IMG/VR virus record: IMGVR_UViG_3300034122_002094
DNA length: 64,000 nucleotides
Reading direction: 5' to 3' (one strand)
Source of the DNA: a virus
This document shows positions 12,278 through 62,504 of this stretch, one piece after another (the stretch's first letter is position 1; the number at the start of each line of letters is the position of its first letter). The notes beneath the pieces are model-generated. The model worked only from the letters and a program-made list of their open reading frames with translations. It did no database searches and was not told the origin of the DNA. The translations under genes and the position numbers were made by a program.

Positions 12278-12306
12278 TTGACACAAGACAATTTTTGTGG
12301 TATAAT
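12278..12306 (+). promoter_or_regulatory. consensus sigma70 promoter with extended -10
   Basis: TTGACA-17 bp-TATAAT, TGn before -10, AT-rich UP region. Confidence 0.85.
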
Positions 12307-16636: not shown

Positions 16637-16666
16637 TTGACAGGCACTTAGCCGCCGTGGTATAAT
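16637..16666 (+). promoter_or_regulatory. consensus sigma70 promoter
   Basis: TTGACA-18 bp-TATAAT with TGn extended -10. Confidence 0.7.
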
Positions 16667-19230: not shown

Positions 19231-19452
19231 TAGTGTGGGTTGCTTTATCGTTGTGCTGTGTCATACATATCAAGCAGTGGTCAAGTGACTATGTGCTTGA
19301 TCTGTATAGCATCCTAGCATAACGCATCGTGCGTTGTAGTGTGAGATGAAAGTAGGTTCGGTTTGAGAGACCCGATCCAATCCAAAAACAGAGGCTGCCT
19401 ATACGCGGATATAAGATCCGCGTGTGAGCTTTGCCCCCAATTGAGGTCTATC

Positions 19453-20193
19453 ATGAGCAACTATGGTGAGTATCGTTCGGCGAGGGAAGAAGCCAAGACG
19501 AACGGCAACTGGGATCGTGCGTTCTGGTTGGCTATCAAGATGCCAAGGGGTGAGGAGAGAGACGCCGCGTTGCGAGACTGGTGGTTGACCGAGACCAGCG
19601 CTTATCTCTCGCCCTGCGATCTGAGGATCGAGAAGAACGGGACGAGGAGCGGAGGCTATCGTTTCGGAGCTGCTCGCAGGATCTCTCACCTCACCATGAC
19701 AGACGACTGTTGTGAGATCAGCTACCATGAGGAGCGCGTGTTTCGCGGCTCCGATGTCGAGCTGCCGAAGCTCGCTCACAAGTTTGGTCGGCTCCTCGTT
19801 GAGCGCTTGCTTGAGAGCTTCGAGGCTGAGATCAAGCAGGACATCATCCTGTGGCAGCTCCTGGACCAGTACAGAGAGTCTATCCAGTCGCCCAAGGACA
19901 GCCTGGAGAGGCGCTGGGACATCCATCTGTTGTCGAATGTCTACCTCAGGATCTCTCCCGACGACATCGACGAGCGCCAGCAGCACTCCCTTCTGGAGTC
20001 GATCGCTTATGCGATGCTCGTCTGCCTTCTGGAGTACGACTACTATCTGGAAGGGGTCGCGCTCCACTATCAGAACGCCTACAATGCGGAGCGCCGCAGC
20101 AAGGGCGAGCAAGAATACTGGGACACAATTGAGGATGTCGGCAGTGAGTACATGACGATCATCCTTCAGGCATACAAGCAGACTCTGCGCTAA
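19453..20193 (+). CDS. hypothetical protein, paralog of the next gene
   Basis: NYGEYRSAREEA...MPxGxERDAALRDWW shared with 20225-20905. Confidence 0.75.
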   Translation: MSNYGEYRSAREEAKTNGNWDRAFWLAIKMPRGEERDAALRDWWLTETSAYLSPCDLRIEKNGTRSGGYRFGAARRISHLTMTDDCCEISYHEERVFRGSDVELPKLAHKFGRLLVERLLESFEAEIKQDIILWQLLDQYRESIQSPKDSLERRWDIHLLSNVYLRISPDDIDERQQHSLLESIAYAMLVCLLEYDYYLEGVALHYQNAYNAERRSKGEQEYWDTIEDVGSEYMTIILQAYKQTLR

Positions 20194-20224: not shown

Positions 20225-20905
20225 ATGAACTACGGTGAGTATCGTTCGGCGAGAGAAGAGGCCTTCATCAGCAACAACTGGAGAGAACCGCTGCGCATCC
20301 TCAAGCAGATGCCAGTAGGCGATGAGCGCGACGCAGCGCTGCGTGACTGGTGGATCAATGTTGACATCGACAGCCTCTTGAAGGCAGGCGTACAGTGGAT
20401 CAGCGCTTTTGACTCGTATCCTACGGTCGATGCCGCTCGTCACGTCGCGTGGCGATGGGAGATCGGTCAGTGGCACCTGATGATCCTGTCGTATCGTGAT
20501 ATGGACCTTGAGAAGATGTCGCATCGTTGGTGCGAGGAGATCATCGAGGAGGCGCTTGTTCAGTATAATGCGGACATTGCTCTGGCAGCGCCCCAAGTGT
20601 TTGACCTGATCGCACAGTACAGGCTTGCGATCAAGACTGAGCCTCGTAGCAAGGAGATGCTCGCTTGCAAGCAAGCCTTGAGAGCGGCCACTCTCAGTCA
20701 ACGCTGGTGGCCCTGGGTTAACAAGCTGCTGATGGCGATGTCAGCGAGGGTGGATCTGGAGATCGGGATTCAGAAAGCAGTGCAGGGGTTCCTCGCTTCT
20801 GCTCGTAACAACTTCTCGTCTCATGACTATGAGGAGACCTACCAGCAATACAACGACAGGTTCACAAAGAAGGTCCTCGTGGCCTACAAGGATACAGTGA
20901 AATAA
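20225..20905 (+). CDS. hypothetical protein, paralog of the previous gene
   Basis: Same N-terminal motifs; AGGAG RBS. Confidence 0.75.
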   Translation: MNYGEYRSAREEAFISNNWREPLRILKQMPVGDERDAALRDWWINVDIDSLLKAGVQWISAFDSYPTVDAARHVAWRWEIGQWHLMILSYRDMDLEKMSHRWCEEIIEEALVQYNADIALAAPQVFDLIAQYRLAIKTEPRSKEMLACKQALRAATLSQRWWPWVNKLLMAMSARVDLEIGIQKAVQGFLASARNNFSSHDYEETYQQYNDRFTKKVLVAYKDTVK

Positions 20906-20966
20906 TCGTCAGGCAAGCGGCATCATGACAGGCAGTCGTGGTGTCGCTCGCATCGCTGATGATGCG
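20905..20966 (+). repeat. intercistronic structured element, copy 1
   Basis: ATCGTCAGGCAAG-hairpin-CTCGCATCGCTGATGATGCG. Confidence 0.85.
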
Positions 20967-20997
20967 GTATCTCAACTCTCAACTCAAGGAGTCTATC

Positions 20998-22134
20998 ATG
21001 ATCAATCTCAATGAAATGTCAGTAGAAAACATCAATCAGATCAAGCTGTTGGCCAAGATCTATGACACAAAGTCAGACGACGCTCAGCCGATTATCAACA
21101 TGTTCCTTGACATGTTCGGTCGGGACTACTTGATCGAGGACCACTTCGAGCTGTGCTGGTGGCTGTTTCATCTGGAGCACGCGGAGCACAGAGATGCTCT
21201 TGACATTATCACCAACATCTACAACGAGAAGAAGCACCGAGCGTGGGGATCGCTATTTGCGCCCACTGAAAACCTGATCGAGCTGCCTCAGTTCATCGGC
21301 GATGCTTACAGTGCTGCTGATGTCGAGAGCTTCCTGATGACAGCTTCAAAGCTCGGGCATCGCTTCTTTGATCATCCCTCACTGCCGAAGCTGCGCAGAT
21401 CTATCATCCTCGACTTCGATGACGAGCAGGCGCAGAGGATCAACTACTTCTCGGCAGGGCACCATCTACCGCTGCGCTACTGTGGAGCAGGCATCCTCGT
21501 GCCTCACGTCAGAGACTATATGCCGTGGACCCTCATGCCAAAGCAGAATGTCCACAGGGCCATCCTGGACGTCAACGTCGCTGAGATCAACCAAGATCCG
21601 CTGGTTGATGAAGGTGACTCGGTCAGTCAGGCTGTCCATGATATGGACTGTTTGTGTGACATGGAGTTTCGTGATGGTCGCGTCGACAGTCGCAAGAGTG
21701 CTGTGATCGACCATCGACTCGCCGCTCTGGCTGAGAAGTTCTTTCCCCATCGCGATCCTTATGACGTGATGGTGCGCATCTCCCCGATCACTGATGGTGC
21801 TGTGTCGAAGACCTACCGCTCAAAGAGCATGAAGCTGACCTTCAGTCACAAGGAGGACCGTGTCAGGATCTCTTCTCGCTACTATGTAGCAGAGGGTAAC
21901 GATGACCCGATCTCTTATGCGAAGGTCATGGCCAGGGTTCGGCTGTGGGCTGCCGAGGACGGCGCAAACAACGTCGTGATGTCCGGCGTCGACACACATG
22001 CCGAGTTCACTGTCTGGCCCTCTGTGCAAACTCAAGAGCCTTTTGACTATTTTGACACGCTCTTGGAGTCAGGCGCGACTGTCTGTCTTCGTCAAATCGT
22101 CCCGCGTCTCACGCTCAGGCGTTATCCTGTCTGA
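20998..22134 (+). CDS. hypothetical protein, related to 23710-24816
   Basis: Shared KKHRAWG..L...LPxFIGD and QxxRIN segments. Confidence 0.75.
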   Translation: MINLNEMSVENINQIKLLAKIYDTKSDDAQPIINMFLDMFGRDYLIEDHFELCWWLFHLEHAEHRDALDIITNIYNEKKHRAWGSLFAPTENLIELPQFIGDAYSAADVESFLMTASKLGHRFFDHPSLPKLRRSIILDFDDEQAQRINYFSAGHHLPLRYCGAGILVPHVRDYMPWTLMPKQNVHRAILDVNVAEINQDPLVDEGDSVSQAVHDMDCLCDMEFRDGRVDSRKSAVIDHRLAALAEKFFPHRDPYDVMVRISPITDGAVSKTYRSKSMKLTFSHKEDRVRISSRYYVAEGNDDPISYAKVMARVRLWAAEDGANNVVMSGVDTHAEFTVWPSVQTQEPFDYFDTLLESGATVCLRQIVPRLTLRRYPV

Positions 22135-22195
22135 TCGTCAGGCAAGTGGTATCATCCACTCATGTGGTGGTATCACTCGCATCGCTGATGATGCG
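22134..22195 (+). repeat. intercistronic structured element, copy 2
   Basis: Same flanks, different inner hairpin. Confidence 0.85.
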
Positions 22196-22211
22196 TTCAC
22201 AGGAGTCTCAA

Positions 22212-25200
22212 ATGTCCGCCGATAACAACACCGTCGCTCCCATTGCCCGCCCGACTCCCTACTACACCCACAGCACCAACTCCTCGCGCAACGAGGAGAC
22301 TGGCCACAACACCGACATCCGATTCGGCAAGCAGATCGGTCCTCGCTACATCGATCTCCAGCTCTACCGTCGAAACGGCGGCACCGAGCTGTATGTGAGC
22401 AGCTATGTCAGCTACGATGCGATGGTGGTGCTCAACGCTCCGAGCATCCACGCCAGCAAGTGGCACCTCTATGACAGCATGGACCAGCAGCGATGCAAGG
22501 CCTATGGCATCAAGGGCAGCCAGTTTGAGGATCTGGTGGCTGCGATCAAGGAGGAGATCCCCGAGGATGTTGCGGACGTGTGGCAGGAGGTGATGTACCT
22601 CGTCTGCCTCATCACTGAGGAGCCGCTCTATAACCTCATCTCGCCGCATCGCGAGAACGCCTACAACAGCCACAAGAAGGCGATCTTCGGGCCGTGGGGC
22701 GCCGAGTACAAGCCCTTTGTACCCGTCAAGCCGGACATGGGTGATCTGTCGCCGATCCAGTGGTTGCAGCGCAACTGGTGGATCGATGGTGTTGGTCGTG
22801 TCTGCGTCGGCGATGGCCCCTGCTACTTCTGATCTGGAGGCCGACTCGGCATCACAAGATGCGCATTTTTCGTGTGCGTTTTGTGGTGCTGTGTCGCGCG
22901 TTTTTCAGGAACGTGTCGATCTGGTCCAGTCAAGTCTTACTGGTCCAGAAATTTTAGTGCATCAACCCAAAAGCCTCAAGGAACTCTTATGGAGCCCAAC
23001 AAACTCAAAATCGCGAGCATGAACACCGCCATTGAACAGGCGCGGCTTATCCGGGAAGACATGCTCCGCAACCCCAGACCACACCAGGATCTCAGCAAGA
23101 GAGTCGACTGGAAGGTCGTCGCTCGCGCATGTGTGACAGACACTCGCGGGTCTTCCCTTCTGAGGATCGACTCTTGGCGCTACTTCGATAACAAGTCGAT
23201 GGGAATTGACAAGACAGATGCTGATCAAGCGCCAGAGATCTTCAAGATCGTCTCGGGTATCCTTGCCCCGCAAGGTATCCGTTGGGATAAGCGCTCTTAT
23301 TATAAAGTGAAACAGATTGACTATGAGACACCTGACATCAGATGGGTGATCCCTGACCGCTTCTCAGAAGACGGTCTCATCGGCGCCATGCGGTTGTTCT
23401 GGCCTGTCGAGGTTGAGACAGCTTGGCGAGAGCGTTATGCTCTCTGCTACAACACCATCAGAAAGACCACCATTGGAGCTGAAGCCTACCAATTGGCCCA
23501 GTATCTGATCGGCAATGCTCACGACTGGCGCTACAACTCGGAGGACCCCTATCCTGGCATCCCGACGCAATGCGTGAGCATCGCTGAGAAGATCCACGAG
23601 TGCAACAGAAACTACTGGACGCATACGCGCGGCGCTCGCAGCGGTCGCAAGCTCATCTCCGAACTCAAGAAGATCATCTGATCTGTCAACAGCCTCATAA
23701 GGAAGCATCATGGTCACGTTCAATGCACCAAACATCGCAGAAGAGTACATCCGCCGCTGGGGCCGCGAGTATCGCATCGAAGATCATCTCTCGATCTCAA
23801 AGTTCATGTTCCTCATGGAGGAGCACAAGGACAAAGAGGTCGTAGCCGAAGTTGTGGCGATGCTCACGAACATGGTCCTCGACAAGAAGCATCGCGCTTG
23901 GGGGCCGCTCTATGGCAAGACAACTGCTGTCGAGCAACTACCTCCTTTCATCGGCGACATGAATGATCCGGCTCAAGTTCAGGATCTGCTCGACAAGGTC
24001 GTCGCCTTCTGTAAGCCCTACAAGAAGCCTTTTGCGGTCGAGGACATCGCAGACGAGATCCTCTATGGTGACAAGCCCATCTCTGAGCGCGAGAACACAC
24101 TAGTCCATGCGCTCGCTCGCCTCACAGAAGATCAGTCTCGTCGGATCAACTGCTTGTCAGCAGAGTATCGAGAGGGGCTGTGCTACGGCGCTGTCGGCTT
24201 CTTTCAGTTTGACCACAAGGCGCCTCTCAAGCGTCGCTTCGTCAGAAGCACCAGTCCAGCGATGCTCAGTCTGGCTCAGGTCGAGAAGGTATCAATCTCG
24301 GATAAGCCGACAGATGAGCAGAACACCAACGCCAAGATCGTCCTCCAGTTCTTCATGGAGCACAGCGAATCGGTCGAGAGCATGATCGACAACACTCATG
24401 ACTACACTGTGCTCACAGGTTCAGCGCTTGTTGAGCAGATCTGTAACGCAATCTCTCATGCAAGAGGTAGAGGTCCGCTGCCGATCTCGCCGGTCAATGG
24501 ATGGATGCTTGACCAGCACACCATCATTGAGCACAGCATGGTCACTATCCTGGCTGGCGGTGATGGCTCTCAGCAGATGACCTCTCTTTGCTCCATGTAC
24601 AAAGGCCCGAGCGTGTCATCGATCTGCGGCTTGGAGTTTGAGCTCTTGGAGTATGACGGCAGCAGCTCAGACATCGCGACCCAGCTACGCATGGATCATG
24701 TCATCGCAAGCTATCAGACCAAGAGCATCACCACCAAAGCTGCTGATACAGCGATGGCAGCGAAGCTCATGTGTCTGCCAGCGCCGGATCTCAACGCCTC
24801 AAAGAGCGATCGCTAAAATATCGTTGCATCAAATTTAATGATGCAGCATGAAGGAATGGTGCAGCGCTCGCTGCGCGGAACCATTCCACTCTACATGGAA
24901 GACGTCATCATGAATCTGACCAAGCTCTCTCAAGACATGTCTCGCGATCGCATCTACGACCGCATGGGCCGGACCCAGTTCTCTGGCACACTCCCCTACT
25001 CGAAGGGACACGATGATGCGCGCCGCCGTATGGCTGTCATCATCCAGACCCGCAAGCTTGCGAGAAAGCTTGATGCGGTGGCTCGCAAGACCGCTGACAT
25101 CCGAGCTCGCTCGCTCAACGACAGAAGCTATGCCAAGCAGCTCTTGGAGCTGGAGCGCACCATGTCCGTTCTGCAAGAGAAGATGTGGGCGGTGCGCAGT

Positions 25201-25690
25201 CACTACACCTGCCGCGAGAACAGAGGCCGTCGCTCTCGCAAGAGCGATCGCTAAAATATCGTTGCAACAAAATTAGTGATGCCCTATAAAAAAATGGTGC
25301 CGCAACCCATGCCGCAAGGCAAAACAACAAATGGAGAATCCGATGCCCCTCTCTATCGTCATGCCTCTGCTTGAGAACTGCTCCGACTATCAGTGCCACT
25401 GTGTCAAGACATGCGAGCCAGGCTCAGCTCTCGCTCTGTGCTTCGCTCGCAATCGCACGACCATGCTTCGGCGAGAGCTGGCATGGGCCGAACAAGCGGA
25501 GGCCCGCGCTGCTCGTCTGGCATCTGCTGAGACTGTGCTCGGTCACTATGCCCGAGGCTACAACGGATCTGATTTTTATGAGGGTTACATCCTCGGCTAT
25601 GATGGTGAGTCAGACGAGTATGAGCTGACGCAAGAGGACGACAGCTCTATCTGGATCGAAGCCAAGACGATGATTCTTCAGATCAACTGA
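22212..25690 (+). other. hypothetical genes 22212-22832, 22989-23681, 23710-24816, 24910-25254, 25343-25690
   Basis: RBS-preceded + strand ORFs. Confidence 0.7.
24809..24852 (+). promoter_or_regulatory. repeated promoter cassette (representative copy)
   Basis: TCGTTGCA...TAGTG...-10 family with 17-bp spacer; -35 hexamers at 24824, 25262, 28905, 30984, 34246, 41336, 46219, 50036, 57476. Confidence 0.8.
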
Positions 25691-25753
25691 TCGTCAGGCA
25701 AGCGGCATCATCACTCTAGCTGTGGTGGTGTCGCTCGTATCGCTGATGATACG
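25690..25753 (+). repeat. intercistronic structured element, copy 3
   Basis: CGTATC/GATACG variant of the 3' helix. Confidence 0.85.
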
Positions 25754-26744
25754 CTAACAGGAGTCCATCATGCCCCTCAAGCAGTTCACTGTGTCTGGTC
25801 TCAACACTGACATCGCTTCGCGCGACGGCATCTATCGTCTCGCTGAGCGTGGCGACGCCAACGATCAGGGCCTCACCTTCGAGGAGTGGGCGTGCGCTGT
25901 CTGCTGCGATATGCAGTTTGACCGCAGCAACACCGCCTACAACTCTATGCTGCTCAAGCTCCGCTATGGCGGTGAGCTTTATAAGCGTTCTGAGCAGCTC
26001 TTTGGCATGGCCTCTGAGGCTGTCCGCAAGATCCTCCTGCACGAGTGGTATGAGGGCGTTGATCCCTCCGAGCTGCGCGTCAAGTTCTCCAAGATCAATA
26101 GCGAGGTGGCATGATGAACAAGCATCAGCATGTCTTCAAGAGCGAGAAGCCTTCCTGCCCCTGCTGTGGCGAGTCACTCTCCCTCGTGGCGGCCAACATC
26201 GACGGCGTGACCTTCACGCTCGGCTGCATCAACTGCAACCCTGAGTCTGACTGGGATCAGGTCGAGGCCCAGATCGCTGCGGCTGTGGCTGTCTGTTCGG
26301 GGAGGGACTGATGTACTACATGCCCCACTTCTGCCTCGGTATGCGCTGGAAGCTGTTCGATATTGCTCGGCAGCTCCCAGATCATACCAAGCATGGCCTG
26401 TCTATCTCAGAGGCGATCTTCACATGGCCGATCGGCTATGTGCTGGGTGATGAGCGCACAGGTGAGATGCGCTTTCACTTCGACGGTCCTCATCTGCGGA
26501 TCGTCAACACCCTCACTCGCAAGGAGATCATCGTCGAGAAGGTCAAGGTATCTGACTTTGTTGATCTCGGCCATACGCTGCTAAGTCGTCATGGTCTCTC
26601 TGATCACGAAGAGAAGATGATCGGCATCGTTGATCGCGCTTTGCAGGATACCTACTGGGATAACATCAAGGATTATCTCAAGTGGAGCAAAGACTTTTAC
26701 TCAAAAGGTCGGCTTGAACAGCAAGGCTACGAGTTCGCATACTG

Positions 26745-26806
26745 ATCGTCAGGCAAGTGGAGCTGCTACGCATGGTAGCAGCTCCACTCGTATCGCTGAT
26801 GATACG
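26745..26806 (+). repeat. intercistronic structured element, copy 4
   Basis: Perfect 14-bp inner stem AGTGGAGCTGCTAC/GTAGCAGCTCCACT. Confidence 0.85.
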
Positions 26807-29624
26807 TCAACAGGAGTATATCATGCTCATCGAGGATAGAAGTGCTCAACACACTTCTTATCACGAGATCTATGCTCGTGCTCAGAGATTTGGCGCCAGT
26901 GTATCTGATCGGAATCGGCTGGCCAAACTCGATGAAGATCGACTCGCGCATGGGCGCGCAGTTCTGGCCAAGGCTTTGCCTCTGGGTCGGGGCTCCACCT
27001 CGTGGTTACTCGCAGTCGCCCTCACGCCCATCATCCATCCGAAAGGAGACGCAATCTCCAAGATGGATCGCACACCACGCTTGCTCGCTGCTCTTGAGGC
27101 CGTGAATCTGAAGCCTTCAGGTCCTCTGGCCGAATGGGCTGGCGAAGACTCAGCGTGGACATCGGCGACGATTGATCTAGAAGATGGATCGGCGCTGTCT
27201 CTTGTCGTGGGATGGCACAAGGGATGGCATCGTCAGCCCAGTCCGTGGGTTTACGACTACGCCCAGATCAGCGTGATGCAGCCAGCTATCCTTGGTGGTG
27301 GCTGGCACTTGATGGATGAATGCACCCTCGATAACAAAGGCAATCGACGGTAGCTAGCATATAACGCTCATAGGAGGATCTCATGTCAGAAAACAAGTGG
27401 CACAAGCATGATCGGCCAGACAACACCACCATCCCTCTGTCTTGGTACAGTGATGTCGTGATTCATGGCTATACGTTCTCAGCTCAGATCATCGCGTACA
27501 ATTCTCGTGGCAATGGCCCGTACACGATCAGGACTGGCTTCATCGGATCTGTGCTGCAAGACGAGTGGTCATATGAGTACCATGACCAGCCTGAGCGAGT
27601 GCTCAAGGATGCGATGGATCTCGCTATCGTTCTGCGCGATAGCCTCGCTGGAGCAATCATCCAATCATGATCAGGCGCTACACTGAGAAGTTTCCGCAAG
27701 GCAGCTTACAACCTGAGGACGTCAACCTCTCGCATATGAGTGCCCTCGCCAAGAGAGACGGCAAAGATCTCTGGTTCGCCTGTTGGAAGACAGACGAAAC
27801 TGGCCGGATTGCGGCGTGGTCTCTTGGCAACACAGAAGCCGAGGCTCTTCAAAATCTGGCACTCAAGTGCCGAGATCGGCATGAAGCAATTCAGCTAGCT
27901 CACAAACAGAACCTGTTCTAACCAATATCTGAGAGGGGCTCTGAAATGGTGAACAGAATCACTGAGAAGTACCCACAGGGCAGCCGCGACGGTATCAACC
28001 TCTCTCTGCTGAGCGCGTGGGCGCAACAAGACGGCGAAGAGCTTTGGATCGCCTATTGGCAAGCATACGCCCCACCTCACGCTGTTGCGTGGGCGATTGC
28101 TGACACAGAAGAGAAGGCGATCGCCAAGCTCTCGCGCCGCTGCTCAGAGAGCGATGCAGTTCTGAGAGCTAAACACCGCTAAAACAAACCAACCTGACAG
28201 GAGTTCCCCATGACCGGATGCAAGTTCACTGTGACCAAGACGCGCGGCGGATGCTGCCTCAAGATCGAGCGCACAACCAAAGGCTTCTTTGGTAACGATG
28301 TGATGTCAGACCAGCGCAACTTCCAGGACCGTACTCCCGCCGAGGTAAATCAGCTCAAGCGCATGGTCGCTCAGGCTGGTGACGATCTCAACAAGCTCGA
28401 TGATCTGTTGGCCGCTGCTGGCTGGCACTAACAACCGAGGAGAATCTCATGAAAACAATTATGACCCCAGTGGTCCTCGCCCTCGACTTCGTGAACCTCA
28501 AGACGACAGAGCACGCCCTGTTCTTTGTCACTGATGAAGATCCTGGCGACGAAGAGCCGCCAGAGAGCGCAGTCAAGAATCACAAAGAGCTATGCTACCA
28601 AGTCGGCATGTGGGTGATCGGCATGATGGCCCCATCTCTCTCCAATGAGGGGCGACACAGTCGCATCAGGCCGCTGTGGGAAGAGAAGATTGGTAGCACC
28701 GCCACCAGCGACTACGACCTCCACGACGAGAACTGGGATGAGATCCTTCGCTCATGGATCTGCGCTTTGGAAGCAGACATGCTCAAGACCAGCGCCGCCA
28801 AGTTCTCCATCTCCCACAAGATCGGCACCAAGTTCACCGGCAACGGCACTATCGGTGTCGATATGACCGACCTCTACTGAACAACAGCGATCTCTAAAAT
28901 ATCGTTGCGATAAATTTAGTGATCGCATATCACAAAATGGTGCGCGGCATCACGCCGCCATCATGAATCAAACCCAAGCATCAAGGAACGCATCATGTCC
29001 ATCTCCCTCGACAAGCATCTCAAAGTCACCTACCGCCTCAATGACATCACATGTCACTTCACGAGCAAGCCCATCTATGTGGATCGCATCTTCGAGGTCC
29101 TTGCGCTCAACGAGAAGCTCAGCGTTCACTGCTGTTCAGGCACTGGTTCTGCTGAGTGCTGGCCCCGTGGGATCATCTGCTCGACCAACGAGAAGTACAA
29201 CAGCGAGAAGCACGGTGAGAAGCTCTCTGATTTTGAGATGGATAACAGCACCGCTGGCGACGACGTCAGCTACTTCGGCTGGTCTGATCTGCACGCGATG
29301 CCTGTGGCAGAGGTGCAGGACTTCAAGGACTTCGCCGAAGACTTCCGCGACCTCGGGCATCGAGACATCGACAACAGCGACATGTACACGCCCTACCACT
29401 GGGACCTCGATGAGATCCTCGGCGTCAAGAAGAGCCTGAGCGAAGTGATCGCGCAAGTCGATCACACTGAGAGACACAGCTTTGTGGATGAGAATGGCCA
29501 CACGATCCTCGTCGCTATCTCCGCCCCTGAGGCTGGCACTCCCAAAGGCTATCTCGTCGATGACAAAGAGAAGTGGCAGGACGGCCAGTGGCTTGATCCC
29601 AACCGCTATGACAAAAAGTAGTAG

Positions 29625-29686
29625 ATCGTGATGCGCTGGGAGCTATGAGCTGTCCTCGTAGCTTCCGCCGTATCAATCACGATACG
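29625..29686 (+). repeat. intercistronic structured element, divergent copy 5
   Basis: ATCGTGAT/ATCACGAT outer helix and CGTATC/GATACG 3' helix; same 62-nt length. Confidence 0.75.
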
Positions 29687-32377
29687 CCAACAGGAGTCTT
29701 TCATGAAGCATCAGATCGGACTCACCTCTGCGATGAATCTCATCCGCATCATCCAGGATCAGCCAGACCTGAACATCGAGCATCGCGAGACCTGCTGCGC
29801 AACGGCGCTGCTCGATGCGCTCGATTGGCGAGACACCTGCTACACCGAGGCACACAAGCGGTCCTTTGAGTACAAGCAGAAGCGCGCCAAGGACTACGCC
29901 TACCACATTCAGGCGCTTCGCGACAAGTACACCGCCTACATGGTCTGGCCACAGTATGTCCGCGATCAGTACCGCCGCAACCTGGCCGCTCACGACAACA
30001 TCATCCGGCTCGACAAGATCCTGGAAGATGCGCGTGCTGCTGGCTGGCTGGTGGACAAGGGTACCTCCATCTTCGGCACTGAGGCGACTCTCACCAGCGA
30101 GGCGGGAGACCTGATCTTGCTCAAGTGGGACTGTGCTCGCTCCGCTGGCCCGGGTATCCTCGGGACGACTGGCTACATCGCTCGGCTGTACATCGCCAAG
30201 AACAAGATCGAGGGAATCGTGAACAACGACTTCACCGAGATCAACACGTTCGCCGATGCACTCGCCGCGCTCAATTAACAAAAAACACAAGAGAGGTCCG
30301 TTATGGAAGAGTGTCCCAAAGAGATCGCTGAGCTGGCATCCGAGCATGACTTCAATCGAGTGATGCACGGCTTCCCCAGCGATCAAGCCGCAGAGGCCTA
30401 CTTCGCAGGTGAACTGCTGCGCAACAGCGACATCGTAAGCTGCCCAGAGATCGTCACGTTCAATGGAGAGATCTATCTGATCTACTTCGACGATACCAAT
30501 GAGGAAGACGACATCCCTCTGGTATTCGTCAAGTATGAACCACCCCTCATCGGCAGGATCAGTCTCTGACTTCGACGACCTCCCAACTCCCTTGACATCG
30601 TCTGCCCTTCGCGGTAGGTGGTGTCAGTGGTTCGTTGTGAAAGAGGCACGATGACCCGTTCAAGATCTCCTCTCAGGTGGCACCGCACCTTCGCCACCGC
30701 GACAACATCCACCCGAACATTAAAGCCATGAAGGCCAGCCAATATGTGTAGAGACCCGCCCTGATCAGTCGCTCAGCCCATATTTATACCGAGCCAAGAT
30801 ACTCAAGACCTCGCTGTGAGGCGTCAAATAGCCCCGTAGAGGCTTTCTACGACCGAGCGTGAGTACAATCATGTAACAGACCCAAAGCTCTCAACCAAGA
30901 CGCTCGTTAGAGGTCTGGCCACAGAGCATCGGTGCCCCATTTTCCAGTAGTAATAAAAATGGCAACGAGGCCTAAAAATCTCGTTGCCATTTTAACAGTG
31001 TCACGCTATCAAGAGACATCAGCAAACAAGCTGACCCAGGACATGTCGTCCTGCTCATCCAAAGGTATCAGTCATGGCCCGTTCATTGAGCCCCATCCTG
31101 TTCGAGTTCGCAAACAACAACGCCGAGTTCCTCACGTCGTGGTGGCAGCGCCACCGGGCGACGAGCGATGCTGGCACGCCGGAGAAGAATCCCGGTCTCG
31201 ACGCGATCCTTCTCCGCTTCGCTGATGCGATGGCGTCCCCATGTCCGGCCTATCCGCAGGAGAAGCCAGAGGTCACGAACGAGCAGTTCGCCGCCTCAAG
31301 CGAGGCGTTCAAGGAGGCGTGTGAGCTGGCAGGTGTGAAGAACACCGCTCGTCAGGCCTCGAAGTTCCGCCGCAAGATGGGTGCGGCCTACAAGGTCCAT
31401 CGCGAGCTGAAGCGCGCCTAACTGCGGCAGTGTGTCGTGTGTTTTTCAGGTAGTGTCGCAAATATCAAGTGAAGTTTGATACTACCTGAAAATTTTGTAT
31501 CTCAACTCAAAAGGTTTCAAGATGAGCAATCAGAACAAGAATACCGATCGCCCCGCCTTCAAGAAGGCAAGCGACCTCTCCATGTTCCTCTACTGGCTGG
31601 AGCGTGCGGCTGCGCAAGGTGCGCAGATCAAGCATATCTTTCTGCCAGAAGATGGCGATGTCAACCGCATCCATGTGACATGGTATGCTGACGAGGTCGA
31701 TCCCAAGGTCAACCGAGTCATCTCGGCGCAGCTCACCGAGCTGCACAACCTGCCGAAGGAAGAGAGTGTCGCGCGTATCAAGCGGGCGATCGAAGCTGTG
31801 CCCCAGCTCTACTCTGTGTACTCGCAGAAGAAGGGCCTGGGTACGACGGTGAGCGGCATGTGTCTGCGAGACAACCGCTTCAAGCCTGACCAGAAGGCGC
31901 TGGTGATCTTCGCGCTCACCTACTTCTGCGAGGACATGGGCGTCGACTACTTTGACCTCAAGGTCGTCGATGATCGAGTGTCTGTCAGTCTGCCGCCCGA
32001 CAAGGCCTACGATGTCGGCAGGCGTCCTGCGCTCGTCTCTGCGCTGCTGGAGTTCCTCAATGACACCAGCGCCGCCAACCCTGGCTTCTGGGACGAGAAG
32101 GACGATGCAAAGCGCGTCGCGCGCTACATCAAGTCCTTCCAGCGCTTCGATCCCAAGACAGCTTGTCTGCGCATCTCTCGCAAGGCGAAGACCAAGACTG
32201 ACAATCGCCCCGTCATCGCCAAGCCCAAGCCCCAGCGTCAGCCGAAGCCGACGCAGAGTGAGCGTGTGAAGGCTCAGGTCGTCGCGGATCGTCGTCCAGC
32301 GAGCATCACAAGCGGCGAGGATCAGCCCAACGGCTGATCAGTTCTCTCAAGCGCCAGAGCCTCTCTCTGGCGCGTCA

Positions 32378-32451
32378 GCAGCGTTAGCATAATTGGATAA
32401 TGCAAGGATCTTCTAAGTCCTACCATGTGGGTTCAAGTCCCTCACGCTGTT
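32378..32451 (+). tRNA. tRNA-Arg(TCT)
   Basis: Acceptor GCAGCGT/ACGCTGT; anticodon arm AGGAT-CTTCTAA-GTCCT; GGTTCAAGTCC T-arm; no encoded CCA. Confidence 0.9.
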
Positions 32452-33023: not shown

Positions 33024-33096
33024 GGCGTTGTCTGCTAATGGTCAGGCGGTCGGACTTTCAATCCGAAGGTGCTGGGTTCAAATCCCGCCAACGCTA
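33024..33096 (+). tRNA. tRNA-Glu(TTC), somewhat atypical D and T arms
   Basis: Acceptor GGCGTTG/CAACGCT; TCGGA-CTTTCAA-TCCGA; GGTTCAAATCC. Confidence 0.8.
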
Positions 33097-58053: not shown

Positions 58054-59229
58054 TTGAGCACAACGACAAAGTCAGATGTCATCCGCGCCCTACTGGGCAA
58101 CCTTGAGAGCTTCTTGAACGAGATCAGCTATGAGCGGTCTCGCGAGATCGAGCTCATCATCGCTGTCATCGTGGCACGACAGCACATGTTCATGCTGGGA
58201 CCACCGGGTGTCGCCAAGTCCTACATCCTTGAGGAGCTGTCTCGCTGCGTCGAAGGCCGCTGCTTCAAGAAGCTGTTCTCGGCGATGACCGAGCTCTCAG
58301 AGGTCCTCGGTCCGATCGACCTCAAGGCTTTCGAGCAGGAAAACGAGCTGCGCTTCAACTACAAGGACATGCTCCCTGATGCGCACTTCTTCCTCGCTGA
58401 CGAGGTCTTCAAGGCCAACTCCGTGCTGCTGAACGCGCTGCTGGAGCTGCTGAACGAGCGCCGCTTCACCAACGGCAGCCAGCGCGTCAACACAGCCCTT
58501 GTCTCTGCCTTCGGCGCCTCGAATGAGCTCCCACAGGAGGGCCTTGAGGCCTTCTATGACCGCTTCCTCGTTCGCACCCAGGTGCTACCCATCCAGGACC
58601 CGCTGATGTTTGCCGAGTATGCTCGGGGCGGGCATATCGCAGCCAAGCGGCGGTGGGAGAACGGGGAGGATGGTCGCACCATGCCGAAGCTCACGCTCAA
58701 GATGCTGGAGTATGCGGCTGAAGAAGCATCGAAGGTCCTGGTGACTCCCGAGTTTGCCAACCACCTCTCCAAGCTGCGCCAGACGTTCAACCTCAAGCAC
58801 GGCGACGTCCAGATCTCTGACCGTCGCTGGGGTCAGGCCGTCCAATTTGCCAAGGCAAGCGCATGGATTGCCGGACGTGAGAAGCTCGTGCGTAACGACC
58901 TCTTCTACCTGCGCGACTGCCTGTGGGATGAGCCTTCGCAGCGTGGGCCGATCCAGAACACAATCGCTCAGGCTTGCGACCACTCGCTGGCCGACTTCCA
59001 GACAACGCTCAATGACATCAGAGCTGCCATCGCCACAGCTCGTCAGGCCTCTCGATACGCTGATGCCATGAAGCATCAGACTGCAATCAATGAGCTTGAC
59101 AAGATCATGCTGGCGATGCTAGAGAACGACCCGTCGCTCGGACTGTACTGCCGAGCTGCAATGCAGCAGCTCCAGTCAGATCGCAGACAGCTCAAAGAGC
59201 ATATCGAGACACTCGTCCAGAGGAAGTAA
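58054..59229 (+). CDS. MoxR-family AAA+ ATPase, RavA-like
   Basis: Walker A GPPGVAKS, Walker B FLADEVFKA, LNALLELLNERRF, GASNELP, YDRFLVR, ISDRRW. Confidence 0.9.
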   Translation: MSTTTKSDVIRALLGNLESFLNEISYERSREIELIIAVIVARQHMFMLGPPGVAKSYILEELSRCVEGRCFKKLFSAMTELSEVLGPIDLKAFEQENELRFNYKDMLPDAHFFLADEVFKANSVLLNALLELLNERRFTNGSQRVNTALVSAFGASNELPQEGLEAFYDRFLVRTQVLPIQDPLMFAEYARGGHIAAKRRWENGEDGRTMPKLTLKMLEYAAEEASKVLVTPEFANHLSKLRQTFNLKHGDVQISDRRWGQAVQFAKASAWIAGREKLVRNDLFYLRDCLWDEPSQRGPIQNTIAQACDHSLADFQTTLNDIRAAIATARQASRYADAMKHQTAINELDKIMLAMLENDPSLGLYCRAAMQQLQSDRRQLKEHIETLVQRK

Positions 59230-60017: not shown

Positions 60018-61221
60018 CTCAGTCAAAGTTGACGGTGATCGAGGGCGGCACAGATTGTACCCGGCTGCTCTACTACAACTGCCCTGTTCGTCATCCATCG
60101 CTCAAGGTCGAGATCGTCACAGATGAGCGCCACCAGCTTCTCTGTGAGATGATCTGGGCCTCTGGGCTGTTCGACGTCGAAGCGCTGGTTGGCCTGAAGA
60201 TCATGCCAGGTCCGTTCGAGCCGTCTGTCAGCAACGGGACAAGATCTCCCTGGAAGGTTGTCAGCCATCTCAAGTCTGACATCGTCTGGGGACCCACAGG
60301 CAACCCAGCAGCCGCAGTCGGTGAACGGCAGAACTATGATGGTCGTGCTGGCCTGACTTACTCGGCTGAGCTGGCCGCACAGCCTGTCGTTGTTGCGCTG
60401 GAAGGCCAGGAAACAGGCTATGCCTGCATCAACGTACTCGCCAATGAGAAATATGTTGGCAGGCTGGTTTATAGCTGGGACAACCTGGCTGATCCGCCTG
60501 TAAGCTTTGGTCTCAAGGCGCTCAAGACCGGTCTGCAAGAGTACAACGACAACGCCCTCAAACAGCGCCAAGCCTTCTTGCTGGAGAATCCATGAAAGAA
60601 AAATTAACCGTCATCGAAGGTGGGACAGAAGACCCCCTGCTGCTCTACTACAAACATGTCGTCATTCATCCATCGCCCTCCTACCAGATCATGTCTGATG
60701 ATCGTCATCAGCTCCTCTGCGAGATGGTGATCCAGAAAGGGATCTTCGAGATCGAGGCGATGGTCGGCAAAATGATGGACCCCAGCAAGCCATTCAAGCC
60801 CTGGGTTTGCAATGGCTTACGCAGTCCCTGGCGCCTCGTATGTCACAAAGTCGAGGAGGCTGGCGTCGACAACATCATCATCGCCAGGCCTCCAGCCCAG
60901 ATTGGTGATACCACTGTCCTGATCAGCATGGGCGGCATCACTGTCAAAGCTCGCATGGGCACCTCATGCGTCGCGATGCTTGTTGGCGTTGGCCAGATCT
61001 GTGGCGCCGCCATCGAAGTGTTGGTGAACGAGGATGTAGTGGGTGAGATCCATTACAGTTGGAACAACCTTGTAGATCCGCCCTTCGAGAAAGGCGATCT
61101 CATGGTAAGTAACGATGCCGCTCTTTACAATGCCTCGATCATCAAAGAGAGGTCCGACTTGATCGCTGCTGAGCGCTCCAAAATGAGACTTCCTTACAAG
61201 CAGTCCAAGAGACCCCTATGA
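60014..61221 (+). other. tandem paralogous genes 60014-60595 and 60592-61221
   Basis: Shared KLTVIEGGT, LLYY, HPS, DxRHQLLCEM, NGxRSPW, YSWxNLxDPP. Confidence 0.8.
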
Positions 61222-62504
61222 ATGAATGGATGGCTGAGATGGACAGGGATGTGTTTCTGCACTACGGCGCGAAGCACCTCTTTGTCGACGAATACAAAAA
61301 AGCTGAGCCTGCTATCCAAGAGCAAATCGTGGATCTGTACGGCTCTCTCTATCGTGGCAGGTCTCACGAGCTGATCGATGCAGCCAGGCATTCCAGCCAC
61401 TACTTCGACACCCACGTCGAGCTCAGTCGCGGAGATCCTTTCCACTCACTCTACATGAGTTATCTCGTCCACAAGTACGTCGATGAGCCCTATCAGGAGG
61501 CCAAAAAGAAAGGCTGCAAAGGCAATGAGCTTGGCGACTTGATGTCTGGCCTGATCAACGAGAAGGTCAAGCCAGAGCTCGATGCAGCGCTTGAGGCTCA
61601 TGCAGATCTCATGGACCTGCTTCAGTCTGAGAGAGGCGATCAGCCTGGCAACAGGGTCGATCAGATCACCGGCCAGACCCTGGAGGATCTCCAGCGGATC
61701 GTGGGTCTGTGCAGCGAGCCCAACTTTGCCGCTGTCATGAAGCTCATGGGCCGCTTCTTTCGCAGCTACTCTGCCATGTTCAAGACGCAGGTGTTCCCGA
61801 GCAACACGGTGCCGGTCGATGTCAAGTTCGGCAGGCAGATCTCTCATGTGTTGTCAAGTGAGCTCCTGGCGCTGGCCAATCCCTCTCTGCGCCGCCTGTT
61901 CCGTCTGAAGTTCGTCACTGGACGCCTGCTCCAATTCGACAAGGAGCACAAGGAGGGTAGCAATCGTGGACCGCTGTACCTGGCGCTTGACATCTCTGGC
62001 TCGATGAGCGCTGAGCTCAAACTTGATCAAGGCCTTCACGTCCATCGCTACCAGCTCGCCGCAGCGCTCATCCTCGTGCTCATGCGCATCTGCTACAAAG
62101 AGAAGCGTGAGTTTGAGATGTTCCTGTTTGGCAGCTCGACAAGGCACCTCTTCTCGTCGAAGGACTACCCGAGGTTGATCGATGCGATGGAGAAGCTCGT
62201 GAAGAGCTGCAAAGGCACAGATGGAACAGACATCAAAAGGTGCTTCAAATCACTGGTAGATTTCAAAGCCAGGGCTGGAGATACCATTCAGCCCGACTTT
62301 GTCATCATCTCTGACCTCGAAGACCAGTGTCCCATGACGACAGTTCAAGAGATCAATAATATGATCGGCGAAACTCGTTGCCATGCGCTCATCGTTCATG
62401 ATAGTCTTGATAGTGAGTGGAACAAGGTCTTTACGACCGTCACCGCTACCACCAACCCCGCCAACATGACCCAGTTCCTGGTCGACTCCACAAGGAAAAG
62501 ATAA
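61218..62504 (+). CDS. VWA-domain protein, ViaA-like partner of the MoxR ATPase
   Basis: GPLYLALDISGSM (MIDAS DxSxS), GTDI, DFVIISD; upstream G..ISHVLSSEL..L. Confidence 0.85.
   Translation: MNEWMAEMDRDVFLHYGAKHLFVDEYKKAEPAIQEQIVDLYGSLYRGRSHELIDAARHSSHYFDTHVELSRGDPFHSLYMSYLVHKYVDEPYQEAKKKGCKGNELGDLMSGLINEKVKPELDAALEAHADLMDLLQSERGDQPGNRVDQITGQTLEDLQRIVGLCSEPNFAAVMKLMGRFFRSYSAMFKTQVFPSNTVPVDVKFGRQISHVLSSELLALANPSLRRLFRLKFVTGRLLQFDKEHKEGSNRGPLYLALDISGSMSAELKLDQGLHVHRYQLAAALILVLMRICYKEKREFEMFLFGSSTRHLFSSKDYPRLIDAMEKLVKSCKGTDGTDIKRCFKSLVDFKARAGDTIQPDFVIISDLEDQCPMTTVQEINNMIGETRCHALIVHDSLDSEWNKVFTTVTATTNPANMTQFLVDSTRKR

What the first reader, a model, noticed from the sequence alone, without database searches (positions are those of the whole stretch)
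20905..29686. Candidate new intercistronic RNA switch family: five 62-64 nt copies with two competing, covarying helices
Seen: copies at 20905, 22134, 25690, 26745, 29625 (62, 62, 64, 62, 62 nt). Each starts in or just after the upstream stop codon, and four end exactly 16 nt before the next ATG, just ahead of AGGAG. The inner hairpin differs in sequence between copies but always pairs, with G-U pairs favouring + strand RNA. Helix A (ATCGTCAG/CTGATGAT) becomes ATCGTGAT/ATCACGAT in copy 5. Helix B (CGCATC/GATGCG) becomes CGTATC/GATACG in copies 3-5. A and B share a GAT, so they are alternatives or form a pseudoknot. I recognise no Rfam family. Inference: (a) a T7-early-type RNase III site whose downstream product refolds into a protective 5' hairpin; (b) a switch flipped by the ribosome terminating upstream; (c) a ribozyme or gene-cassette recombination site.
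Basis: partly seen in the sequence, partly recalled or inferred. Interest (0 to 1): 0.8.

Follow-up and report, generated by a model that had tools for sequence, protein, structure and literature searches.

The report
Two-fold RNA hairpins between phage genes
An uncultivated 177-kb phage places the same conserved 62-nt RNA hairpin between five pairs of genes; it most likely marks where long messages are cut and stabilised, as in phage T7, but it also keeps a second, competing small hairpin that T7 sites lack.

Summary
Five 62-64 nt copies sit on the + strand. A covariance model finds only these five in the complete 176,695-bp virus genome (76-85 bits; next best 26 bits). Three partial contigs of related phages supply five more distinct copies in matching gene junctions.

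Each copy folds as + strand RNA into a hairpin of about 25 bp: an 8-bp lower helix that starts at the upstream stop codon, a GC step, a 4-nt bulge and a 14-bp upper stem. Over 10 sequences, 97.9% of cells pair and 10 pairs show double changes.

A competing 6-bp hairpin (helix B) pairs in 60 of 60 cells and has one covarying pair, split 5:5. The lower 37 nt are about 97-100% identical between relatives whose third codon positions are only 53-86% identical.

There is no Rfam match, no attC core, no integrase and no phage RNase III gene. The layout (stop in the lower stem, hairpin, Shine-Dalgarno (SD) site, ATG) matches T7 RNase III sites refolded here.

Best reading: a T7-style processing and stability element cut by a host enzyme specific for double-stranded RNA (dsRNA), with helix B capping the new 5' end. 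Cleavage is inferred, not shown. The "switch" reading is energetically plausible but untested.

This scan has noted similar intercistronic hairpin families in other phages.

The parts
20905..20966 (+). Copy 1. Helix A 20905-20912/20956-20963; upper stem 20916-20929/20935-20948; helix B 20949-20954/20961-20966. The stop TAA of gene 20225-20905 ends on the first base.
22134..22195 (+). Copy 2. It follows gene 20998-22134 (TGA overlaps by one base) and precedes gene 22212-22832.
25690..25753 (+). Copy 3 (64 nt, 7-nt apical loop). It follows gene 25331-25690 and precedes gene 25770-26114.
26745..26806 (+). Copy 4 (upper stem has Watson-Crick pairs only). It follows gene 26311-26745 and precedes gene 26823-27353.
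29625..29686 (+). Copy 5, the most divergent. Helix A has three compensated changes, helix B is intact, and tandem TAG TAG stops lie at 29619-29624.
20967..20997 (+). Linker of copy 1 with the AGGAG Shine-Dalgarno site (31 nt, 15 nt longer than in the other copies), before ATG 20998.
22196..22211 (+). 16-nt linker with AGGAG before ATG 22212. The same 16-nt linkers lie at 25754-25769, 26807-26822 and 29687-29702.
16637..16666 (+). Perfect TTGACA-18-TATAAT promoter upstream of the gene run that holds copies 1 and 2 (context, inferred early promoter). A second perfect one lies at 12278.
25240..25303 (+). Promoter-like repeat (family D2: CTAAAATATCGTTGCA-N17-TATaAa) one gene upstream of copy 3. 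Sister copies lie at 24802-24865 and 28883-28946; the latter is one gene upstream of copy 5.
22840..22900 (+). Unrelated hairpin of about 24 bp, rich in G-U pairs, directly after the stop of gene 22212-22832. It is a second long intercistronic double-stranded RNA structure in the same gene run, and the base of its stem is conserved in relative L147.

Best explanation
The element is an intercistronic mRNA processing and stability signal of the T7 early-region type.

Proposed mechanism:
- In the polycistronic + strand transcript it folds into a two-tier helix of about 25 bp (form A). The base of this helix begins at the upstream stop codon.
- A dsRNA-specific endonuclease cuts at the distortion between the lower and upper stems (the A-C mismatch and 4-nt bulge on the 3' strand). 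Host RNase III is the most likely enzyme, because the phage encodes none.
- The upstream message keeps the 14-bp upper hairpin as a 3' stabiliser.
- The downstream message starts near C59. Its first 18 nt refold into the 6-bp hairpin B, a 5'-terminal cap just ahead of a strong AGGAG-N7-ATG start.

Shown here: the fold, its strand, the covariation, purifying selection, placement, and the competing helix B.

Inferred: the cleavage, the enzyme, the cut position, and the protective role of helix B.
For: Structure:
- 97.9% of 240 pair cells are standard pairs over 10 distinct sequences. Ten pairs changed on both sides; 0/500 shuffles reach these values.
- RNAalifold gives the same fold.
- Many conserved G-U pairs and a much weaker reverse strand point to RNA of the coding strand.

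Selection:
- Against relative L132, third codon positions are 53-68% identical. The lower 37 nt of the element are 36/37 identical, and the upper stem is 76% identical with compensated changes.
- Against L130, third positions are 73-86% identical and the elements 95-98%.
- In L147 the neighbouring proteins are only 49-77% identical, yet copies 2 and 3 score 77 bits.

Geometry:
- The helix is about 25 bp, longer than the 22 bp (two turns) of an ideal RNase III substrate.
- Bulges and loops at the target site are what give single-strand cuts that leave stabilising 3' hairpins (PMC3867540).

Analogy tested:
- T7 intercistronic regions refolded with the same tool show the stop codon inside the lower stem, an internal loop, an upper stem, then SD and ATG, within gaps of 62-80 nt.

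Context:
- All genes are co-directional. Perfect sigma-70 promoters lie upstream, and no intrinsic terminator follows the elements.
- Ordinary junctions in this gene run are 17-39 nt with the same SD, so the element is a 62-nt addition to a normal junction.

Helix B:
- It pairs in 60/60 cells, with one CG/UA pair split 5:5.
- The bulge AUC and the tail RCG are invariant although unpaired in form A.
- Helix B is predicted at 0.53-0.99 in a fragment that starts at C59.
Against: - No cleavage data exist and the host is unknown.
- The phage has no RNase III gene, so the enzyme is assumed.
- RNase III has weak sequence preference, yet the lower 37 nt are almost invariant between diverged relatives. 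This suggests a sequence-specific partner, or double structural constraints, beyond dsRNA shape.
- The helix is nearly continuous. T7 sites have a large internal loop, so a two-strand cut that removes the upstream 3' hairpin is equally possible.
- Only five junctions out of dozens in this phage carry the element.
- A phage with about 50% terminase identity lacks it in the 20 kb examined.
Confidence: 0.42

Rival explanations
1. It is a termination-driven two-state switch. A ribosome standing on the upstream stop codon melts exactly the 8-nt 5' arm of helix A. The 3' arm is then free and helix B forms. The A/B state reports upstream translation and sets the fate of the downstream cistron, through initiation efficiency, ribosome hand-over or nuclease sensitivity.
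For: - The stop codon abuts or overlaps helix A in all 10 sequences.
- The A-forced and B-forced ensembles differ by only 0-5 kcal/mol.
- With the 5' arm blocked, helix B rises from <=0.04 to 0.47-0.95 in 4 of the 5 window copies.
- Copy 5 varies helix A only at positions that are loop positions in B, as a dual constraint predicts.
Against: - Neither form pairs with the SD or the ATG, so no output of the switch is visible.
- The spacing to the SD is not fixed: copy 1 and its ortholog carry 15 extra nt.
- T7 R0.5 also has its stop inside the lower stem without being a switch.
- Copy 4 reaches only 0.12 helix B with the arm blocked.
Confidence: 0.2
2. It is a binding site for a sequence-specific trans-acting factor. 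Candidates are a phage-encoded RNA-binding protein or endonuclease, or a host factor. The factor recognises the invariant lower part; the variable upper stem is only a scaffold. The function would be co-regulation of the five downstream or upstream genes.
For: - The lower 37 nt are 97-100% identical across relatives whose proteins are 49-84% identical, while the upper stem drifts with compensation.
- Unpaired residues (A23, C59, the AUCG bulge) are conserved.
- All neighbouring proteins are ORFans with no Pfam or PHROG hit, so an unknown RNA-binding protein could be among them.
Against: - No candidate protein was identified.
- Copy 5 changes 10 or more lower-part positions yet keeps both folds. 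This argues that structure, not sequence, is what is read.
- The conservation can also be explained by overlapping A and B constraints.
Confidence: 0.18
3. It is a DNA-level element: a recombination site (attC-like or PeSL-like cassette boundary) or a small mobile repeat that spreads between gene junctions.
For: - The flanking genes are not paralogs, so the copies did not spread by gene duplication.
- In L132 the 176-aa gene after copy 4 is absent.
- In L147 copy 2 has a different upstream gene.
- The repeat supplies the stop codon.
Against: - The G-U pairs and the 12-15 kcal strand asymmetry fit RNA, not duplex DNA or bottom-strand attC folding.
- The outer arms lack the attC RYYYAAC/GTTRRRY cores (direct reading).
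- The genome has no tyrosine recombinase.
- Copies sit in orthologous slots, and their upper stems diverge in step with the genomes. This indicates old, vertically inherited copies.
- The L132 deletion ends at SD/ATG microhomology, not at a second copy.
Confidence: 0.07
4. It is a self-cleaving ribozyme.
For: It sits in an intercistronic position, has conserved unpaired residues, and 9 of 10 copies contain a CUGAUGA string.
Against: - No hammerhead, twister, pistol, hatchet, HDV or other ribozyme model matches, even at E<=5.
- CUGAUGA is changed in copy 5 and is simply one strand of helix A.
- There is no multi-helix junction or supported pseudoknot.
Confidence: 0.03

Closest known systems
RNase III processing sites of the coliphage T7/T3 early region (R0.3, R0.5, R1, R1.1, R1.3)
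   Same: - A repeated family of 50-65 nt two-tier hairpins between co-directional genes transcribed from host-type promoters.
- The stop codon lies in or at the lower stem, with SD and ATG 10-30 nt after the hairpin.
- Intercistronic gaps are 62-92 nt.
- The helix is long enough for RNase III.
   Different: - There is no sequence homology: R1 does not score T7 sites.
- Here the upper stem is 14 bp, and the distortion is a 1x1 mismatch plus a 4-nt bulge instead of a 4-6 nt internal loop.
- A conserved alternative hairpin B overlaps the 3' arm; T7 sites show nothing like it in the folds.
- Cleavage is demonstrated for T7 and not here.
Start-associated sequences with extended inverted repeats (SAS/ESAS) of Cluster K mycobacteriophages (PMC3203893)
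   Same: - A conserved repeat immediately upstream of the start codons of a subset of phage genes.
- It is made of an imperfect 17-bp inverted repeat with a variable spacer next to an SD-containing motif.
- It is conserved in orthologous slots between related phages, and its function is unknown.
   Different: - In ESAS the arms are conserved and the spacer varies. Here a variable, covarying upper stem sits between conserved lower arms.
- The SD here is the phage's ordinary SD, not part of the repeat.
- No alternative fold is described for ESAS.
REP/BIME-type post-stop hairpins of bacteria and lambda sib-type RNase III retroregulation (recalled from general knowledge, not tested here)
   Same: A stable hairpin directly after a stop codon can set the stability of the upstream message or, when cut by RNase III, destabilise it.
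   Different: REPs are shorter (about 35 nt), occur in hundreds of copies and are host-wide. This element has five copies, is private to one phage lineage, and was not found in 185,579 prokaryote species genomes.
Integron attC sites
   Same: An imperfect hairpin of about 60 nt directly behind gene stops, with gene content differing next to some copies.
   Different: - There are no R''/R' core sites and no integrase.
- The stable strand is the coding/mRNA strand, with G-U pairs.

Membership tests
T7-type RNase III processing signal | Irregular double helix of about two turns (>=20-22 bp) in the transcript | tested here: met
   24 pairs plus one mismatch; 97.9% paired over 10 sequences. The length criterion is from PMC3867540.
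T7-type RNase III processing signal | Located between cistrons of a polycistronic transcript made by the host polymerase | tested here: inconclusive
   Placement is stop-to-SD and the genes are co-directional. Consensus sigma-70 promoters lie at 12278 and 16637, and no terminators follow the elements. The transcripts themselves were not observed.
T7-type RNase III processing signal | Internal loop or bulge at the target site that restricts cutting to one strand | tested here: inconclusive
   A conserved A-C mismatch and a 4-nt 3'-strand bulge lie 14 bp below the apical loop. They are much smaller than the T7 internal loops.
T7-type RNase III processing signal | Cleavage by RNase III in vivo or in vitro | not testable with these tools
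   No RNA-end data are available, the host is unknown, and the phage has no rnc gene.
T7-type RNase III processing signal | Sequence homology to the T7/T3 site family | tested here: not met
   Model R1 gives no significant match at T7 intercistronic sites, so this is an analog, not a homolog.
Any Rfam family (including self-cleaving ribozymes and riboswitches) | Covariance-model match | tested here: not met
   No match at the elements at gathering score or at E<=5.
Integron attC site | R''(RYYYAAC)/R'(GTTRRRY) core sites, bottom-strand folding, and a nearby IntI-type tyrosine recombinase | tested here: not met
   The outer arms read ATCGTCAG/CTGATGAT. The reverse strand folds far worse. There is no PF00589 match in the complete genome.
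SD-sequestering translational riboswitch or RNA switch | One of two alternative folds occludes the SD or start codon | tested here: not met
   SD and ATG are unpaired in both the A and B forms of all sequences.
Intrinsic terminator | GC-rich hairpin followed by a U-tract | tested here: not met
   No T-run follows any copy, and none is listed by the terminator scan.

The most novel reading that the evidence does not exclude
The element is a translation-gated processing site, i.e. a bistable RNA. In form A it is a long helix that a dsRNA nuclease can cut. That form exists only when no ribosome is terminating on the overlapping stop codon. Form B has a 14-bp stem, too short to be cut, plus a 6-bp cap hairpin; it forms during active upstream translation and again after cleavage. 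Cutting and stability of each cistron would then be coupled to how heavily its upstream neighbour is translated. No such logic has been described for phage RNase III sites.
Probability: 0.13. Interest if true: 0.65.

Novelty: new variant of a known kind. Interest (0 to 1): 0.42.

Why it matters
Repeated intercistronic hairpins are how T7 turns one long early transcript into separately stable, separately translated messages. Few such systems are characterised outside T7/T3 and SP82.

This element gives a clean, covariation-supported example from a deeply uncultivated phage lineage; the best cultured terminase match is 28% identical. It carries one extra feature: a conserved competing hairpin, with a variation pattern that fits two overlapping structural constraints.

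If helix B is a 5' cap formed after cutting, or a ribosome-sensed alternative, it would show how a phage tunes message fate gene by gene. It would also offer a compact (62-nt), portable part for separating cistrons in synthetic operons.

If it is only a T7-like site, it is an ordinary though well-documented new sequence family.

Tried and rejected
- **Exact and degenerate DNA patterns of the element.** Scans of IMG/VR, JGI metagenome contigs and GTDB species genomes found no family members.
  - The 14-mer GATCGTCAGGCAAG gave 120+ single chance hits, none of which the model accepts.
  - One strict-pattern hit in a Kiloniellales MAG lies inside a coding region, has no upper stem and scores only 31 bits; it was rejected as chance.
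- **BLAST against phages.** Megablast and blastn of the region and the element found nothing.
- **The search for related loci.** The flanking protein and the terminase gave nothing.
- **Distant relative.** A phage with about 50% terminase identity (L141/L142, 20 kb of its early region) has no R1 element. It has its own unrelated promoter-hairpin repeats. Its whole record could not be searched.
- **Upper stems as guide or antisense RNAs.** No complementarity of 13 nt or more exists elsewhere in the phage genome.
- **Readthrough, frameshift or bypass across the hairpin.** The stop-to-ATG distances are 95, 80, 82, 80 and 84 nt, with no consistent frame.
- **Other motifs.** A hammerhead reading (CUGAUGA) and a K-turn or C/D-box reading (UGAUGA/CUGA) were rejected: the motifs are one strand of a regular helix, change in copy 5, and have no Rfam support.
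- **A+B pseudoknot.** Rejected on geometry, because no loop nucleotides lie between the 3' arm of A and the 3' arm of B.
- **Neighbouring proteins.** Pfam and PHROG scans of 20 proteins gave no hit.
- **Further orthologs.** A look-up of another L132 protein returned only the same contig.


Full report
**What is there**

The window is the minus strand of a complete 176,695-bp IMG/VR virus record with direct terminal repeats.

A covariance model built from them (R1) scores the five at 76-85 bits. It finds nothing else in the window with filters off, or in the whole genome. The next best hits are the reverse strands of the same copies, at <=26.5 bits. Rfam has no match at the elements, at gathering score or at E<=5.

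**Structure**

Each copy folds as + strand RNA at -33 to -38 kcal/mol, z -4.7 to -6.0. Four of the five minimum-energy folds are form A, whose parts are:
- an 8-bp lower helix A;
- two G-C/C-G pairs;
- a 1x1 A-C mismatch and a 4-nt bulge (AUCG) on the 3' strand;
- a 14-bp upper stem;
- a 5-7 nt loop.

Copy 2's minimum-energy fold uses helix B instead. The reverse strand is 12-15 kcal weaker in four copies, because of many G-U pairs. RNAalifold returns the same fold.

**Relatives**

Pattern scans of public collections found no further copies. Homologs of the flanking ORFan proteins led to three partial contigs of related phages:

| Locus | Similarity to the window | Copies carried |
|---|---|---|
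| L130 | 87% nt | orthologs of copies 1 and 2 |
| L132 | 78% nt | ortholog of copy 4 |
| L147 | neighbouring proteins 49-77% identical; same sample as an 82%-identical terminase | orthologs of copies 2 and 3 |

Five near-identical strains carry identical copies.

Over the 10 distinct sequences:
- 97.9% of 240 pair cells are standard pairs;
- 10 of 24 pairs changed on both sides;
- no shuffle out of 500 reaches these values, and sliding the partners destroys the pairing.

In the copy 4 ortholog pair, the five stem substitutions all keep pairing: one full compensation and the rest through G-U (direct reading).

**Selection**

| Comparison | Third codon positions | Element |
|---|---|---|
| Window vs L132 | 53-68% identical | lower 37 nt 36/37 identical; upper stem 76% |
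| Window vs L130 | 73-86% identical | 95-98% identical |

In L147 the lower parts of copies 2 and 3 are again essentially unchanged.

The copies sit in orthologous slots, and their upper stems diverge in step with the genomes. They are therefore old and vertically inherited, with strong purifying selection on the lower part.

**Helix B**

The 6-bp hairpin CGYAUC/GAURCG pairs in 60/60 cells. Its third pair is C-G in all copy 1 and copy 2 sequences and U-A in all copy 3, 4 and 5 sequences (5:5; 1/500 shuffles reach this association).

Further points in its favour:
- These two positions are the only fixed differences between the two sub-families within the otherwise invariant lower part.
- The AUC of the bulge and the RCG tail are unpaired in form A yet invariant. 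Helix B explains both.
- In copy 5, helix A changed at three pairs (16/70, 18/68, 20/66). All of these lie in the loop of B. None changed at 13-15/71-73, which B shares.

The evidence is limited: there is a single covariation event.

Helices A and B cannot coexist, because they share GAU and the G-C step. A pseudoknot would leave no loop nucleotides. Ensembles forced into A or B differ by only 0-5 kcal/mol.

| Condition | Predicted probability of helix A or B |
|---|---|
| Free RNA, window copies | A dominates, 0.74-0.96 |
| First 8 nt after the stop made unavailable | B reaches 0.47-0.95 in four of five window copies |
| Fragment starting at C59 | B 0.53-0.99 |

Neither fold touches the SD or the ATG.

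**Context**

- All genes in this part run on the + strand.
- Perfect TTGACA-N17/18-TATAAT promoters lie at 12278 and 16637.
- A second repeat family (D2) looks like a phage promoter. It sits one gene upstream of copies 3 and 5.
- Ordinary junctions here are 17-39 nt with the same ACAGGAG-N7-ATG. The element is therefore a 62-nt addition between the stop and a normal ribosome-binding site.
- The flanking genes are ORFans and are not paralogs of one another.
- The phage encodes no RNase III and no tyrosine recombinase.

**Comparison with T7**

I refolded the T7 intercistronic regions that hold its early RNase III sites. The site positions are recalled from Dunn and Studier 1983; the record used does not annotate them.

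T7 R0.5 has its stop codon inside a 9-bp lower stem, then an internal loop, a 9-10 bp upper stem, and then SD and ATG, all within a 62-nt gap. That is the same layout as here. T7 early RNA is a precursor of about 7,000 nt cut at five sites (PMC4858673). Distortions at the target site give single-strand cuts that leave stabilising 3' hairpins (PMC3867540).

The differences are no sequence homology, a longer and more continuous helix, and helix B.

The SAS/ESAS repeats of Cluster K mycobacteriophages are a second analog, of unknown function (PMC3203893).

**Verdict**

The best explanation (0.42) is a T7-style processing and stability signal cut by a host dsRNA nuclease. The upper hairpin would stay on the upstream message, and helix B would cap the downstream one.

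The main rivals are:
- a termination-sensed two-state switch (0.20);
- a site for a sequence-specific factor (0.18), which the near-invariance of the lower part keeps alive;
- DNA-level recombination (0.07);
- a ribozyme (0.03).

It is a new sequence family and a variant of a known kind of element, not a new class. Earlier notes of this scan describe similar intercistronic hairpin families in other phages, one of them also called two-state. None of them resembles this one in sequence.

Noticed in passing
window 24802-24865, 25240-25303, 28883-28946; also about 34235, 50025 and 57465, and beyond the window; L147 5762-5853 and 6186-6247: The D2 repeat family has a conserved CTAAAATATCGTTGCA (-35-like TTGCAa), a 17-nt spacer with TTAGTG, TATaAa, then AATGGTG and a GC hairpin. 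It looks like a phage-specific (middle?) promoter family with an operator-like inverted repeat. Its TAA supplies the stop codon of the upstream genes at 24816 and 25254. On the reverse strand it scores as terminator-like. One copy gives a sub-threshold Rfam hit (Bp1_684, 25 bits vs 44).
   Followed up: partly
window 22833-22988; L147 4449-4615: This 156-nt intergenic region has three hairpins (z -6.0). They include a G-U-rich stem of about 24 bp directly after a stop codon; the base of that stem is conserved in the relative while its top varies. It may be a second, unrelated processing or termination signal.
   Followed up: partly
window 12278-12306 and 16637-16666 (+): Two perfect sigma-70 consensus promoters (TTGACA-17/18-TATAAT, one with TG) are likely early promoters. 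Very strong, perfect 14-19 bp GC hairpins lie around 13.8-15.5 kb between them.
   Followed up: no
window 26823-27353 versus L132: The 176-aa gene after copy 4 is absent in relative L132. The breakpoints lie at the SD/ATG of this gene and of the next one, i.e. a whole-gene indel at ribosome-binding-site microhomology.
   Followed up: partly
window 19363-20193 / 20225-20905; 20998-22134 / 23710-24816; 27667-27921 / 27946-28182: These are three pairs of paralogous ORFan genes (31-37% identity) in the early region. In L147 the homolog of 20998-22134 sits after, not before, the homolog of 22212-22832.
   Followed up: partly
window 30570-31073: A 504-nt stretch without a called gene, upstream of two tRNA genes (Arg-TCT at 32378, Glu-TTC at 33024). 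It was not examined.
   Followed up: no
L142 16322-18833 (relative with about 50% terminase identity): A different repeat family lies between small early genes: TTGACA promoter-like sequence overlapping a 13-bp hairpin (CCCACCTAGAAAC/GTTTCTAGGTGGG), in 3-5 copies.
   Followed up: no
window 58054-59229 and 61218-62504: A MoxR-type AAA+ ATPase (PF20030, 1e-46) lies near a weak VWA/CoxE-like protein, just upstream of the Hen1 region that other notes describe.
   Followed up: no
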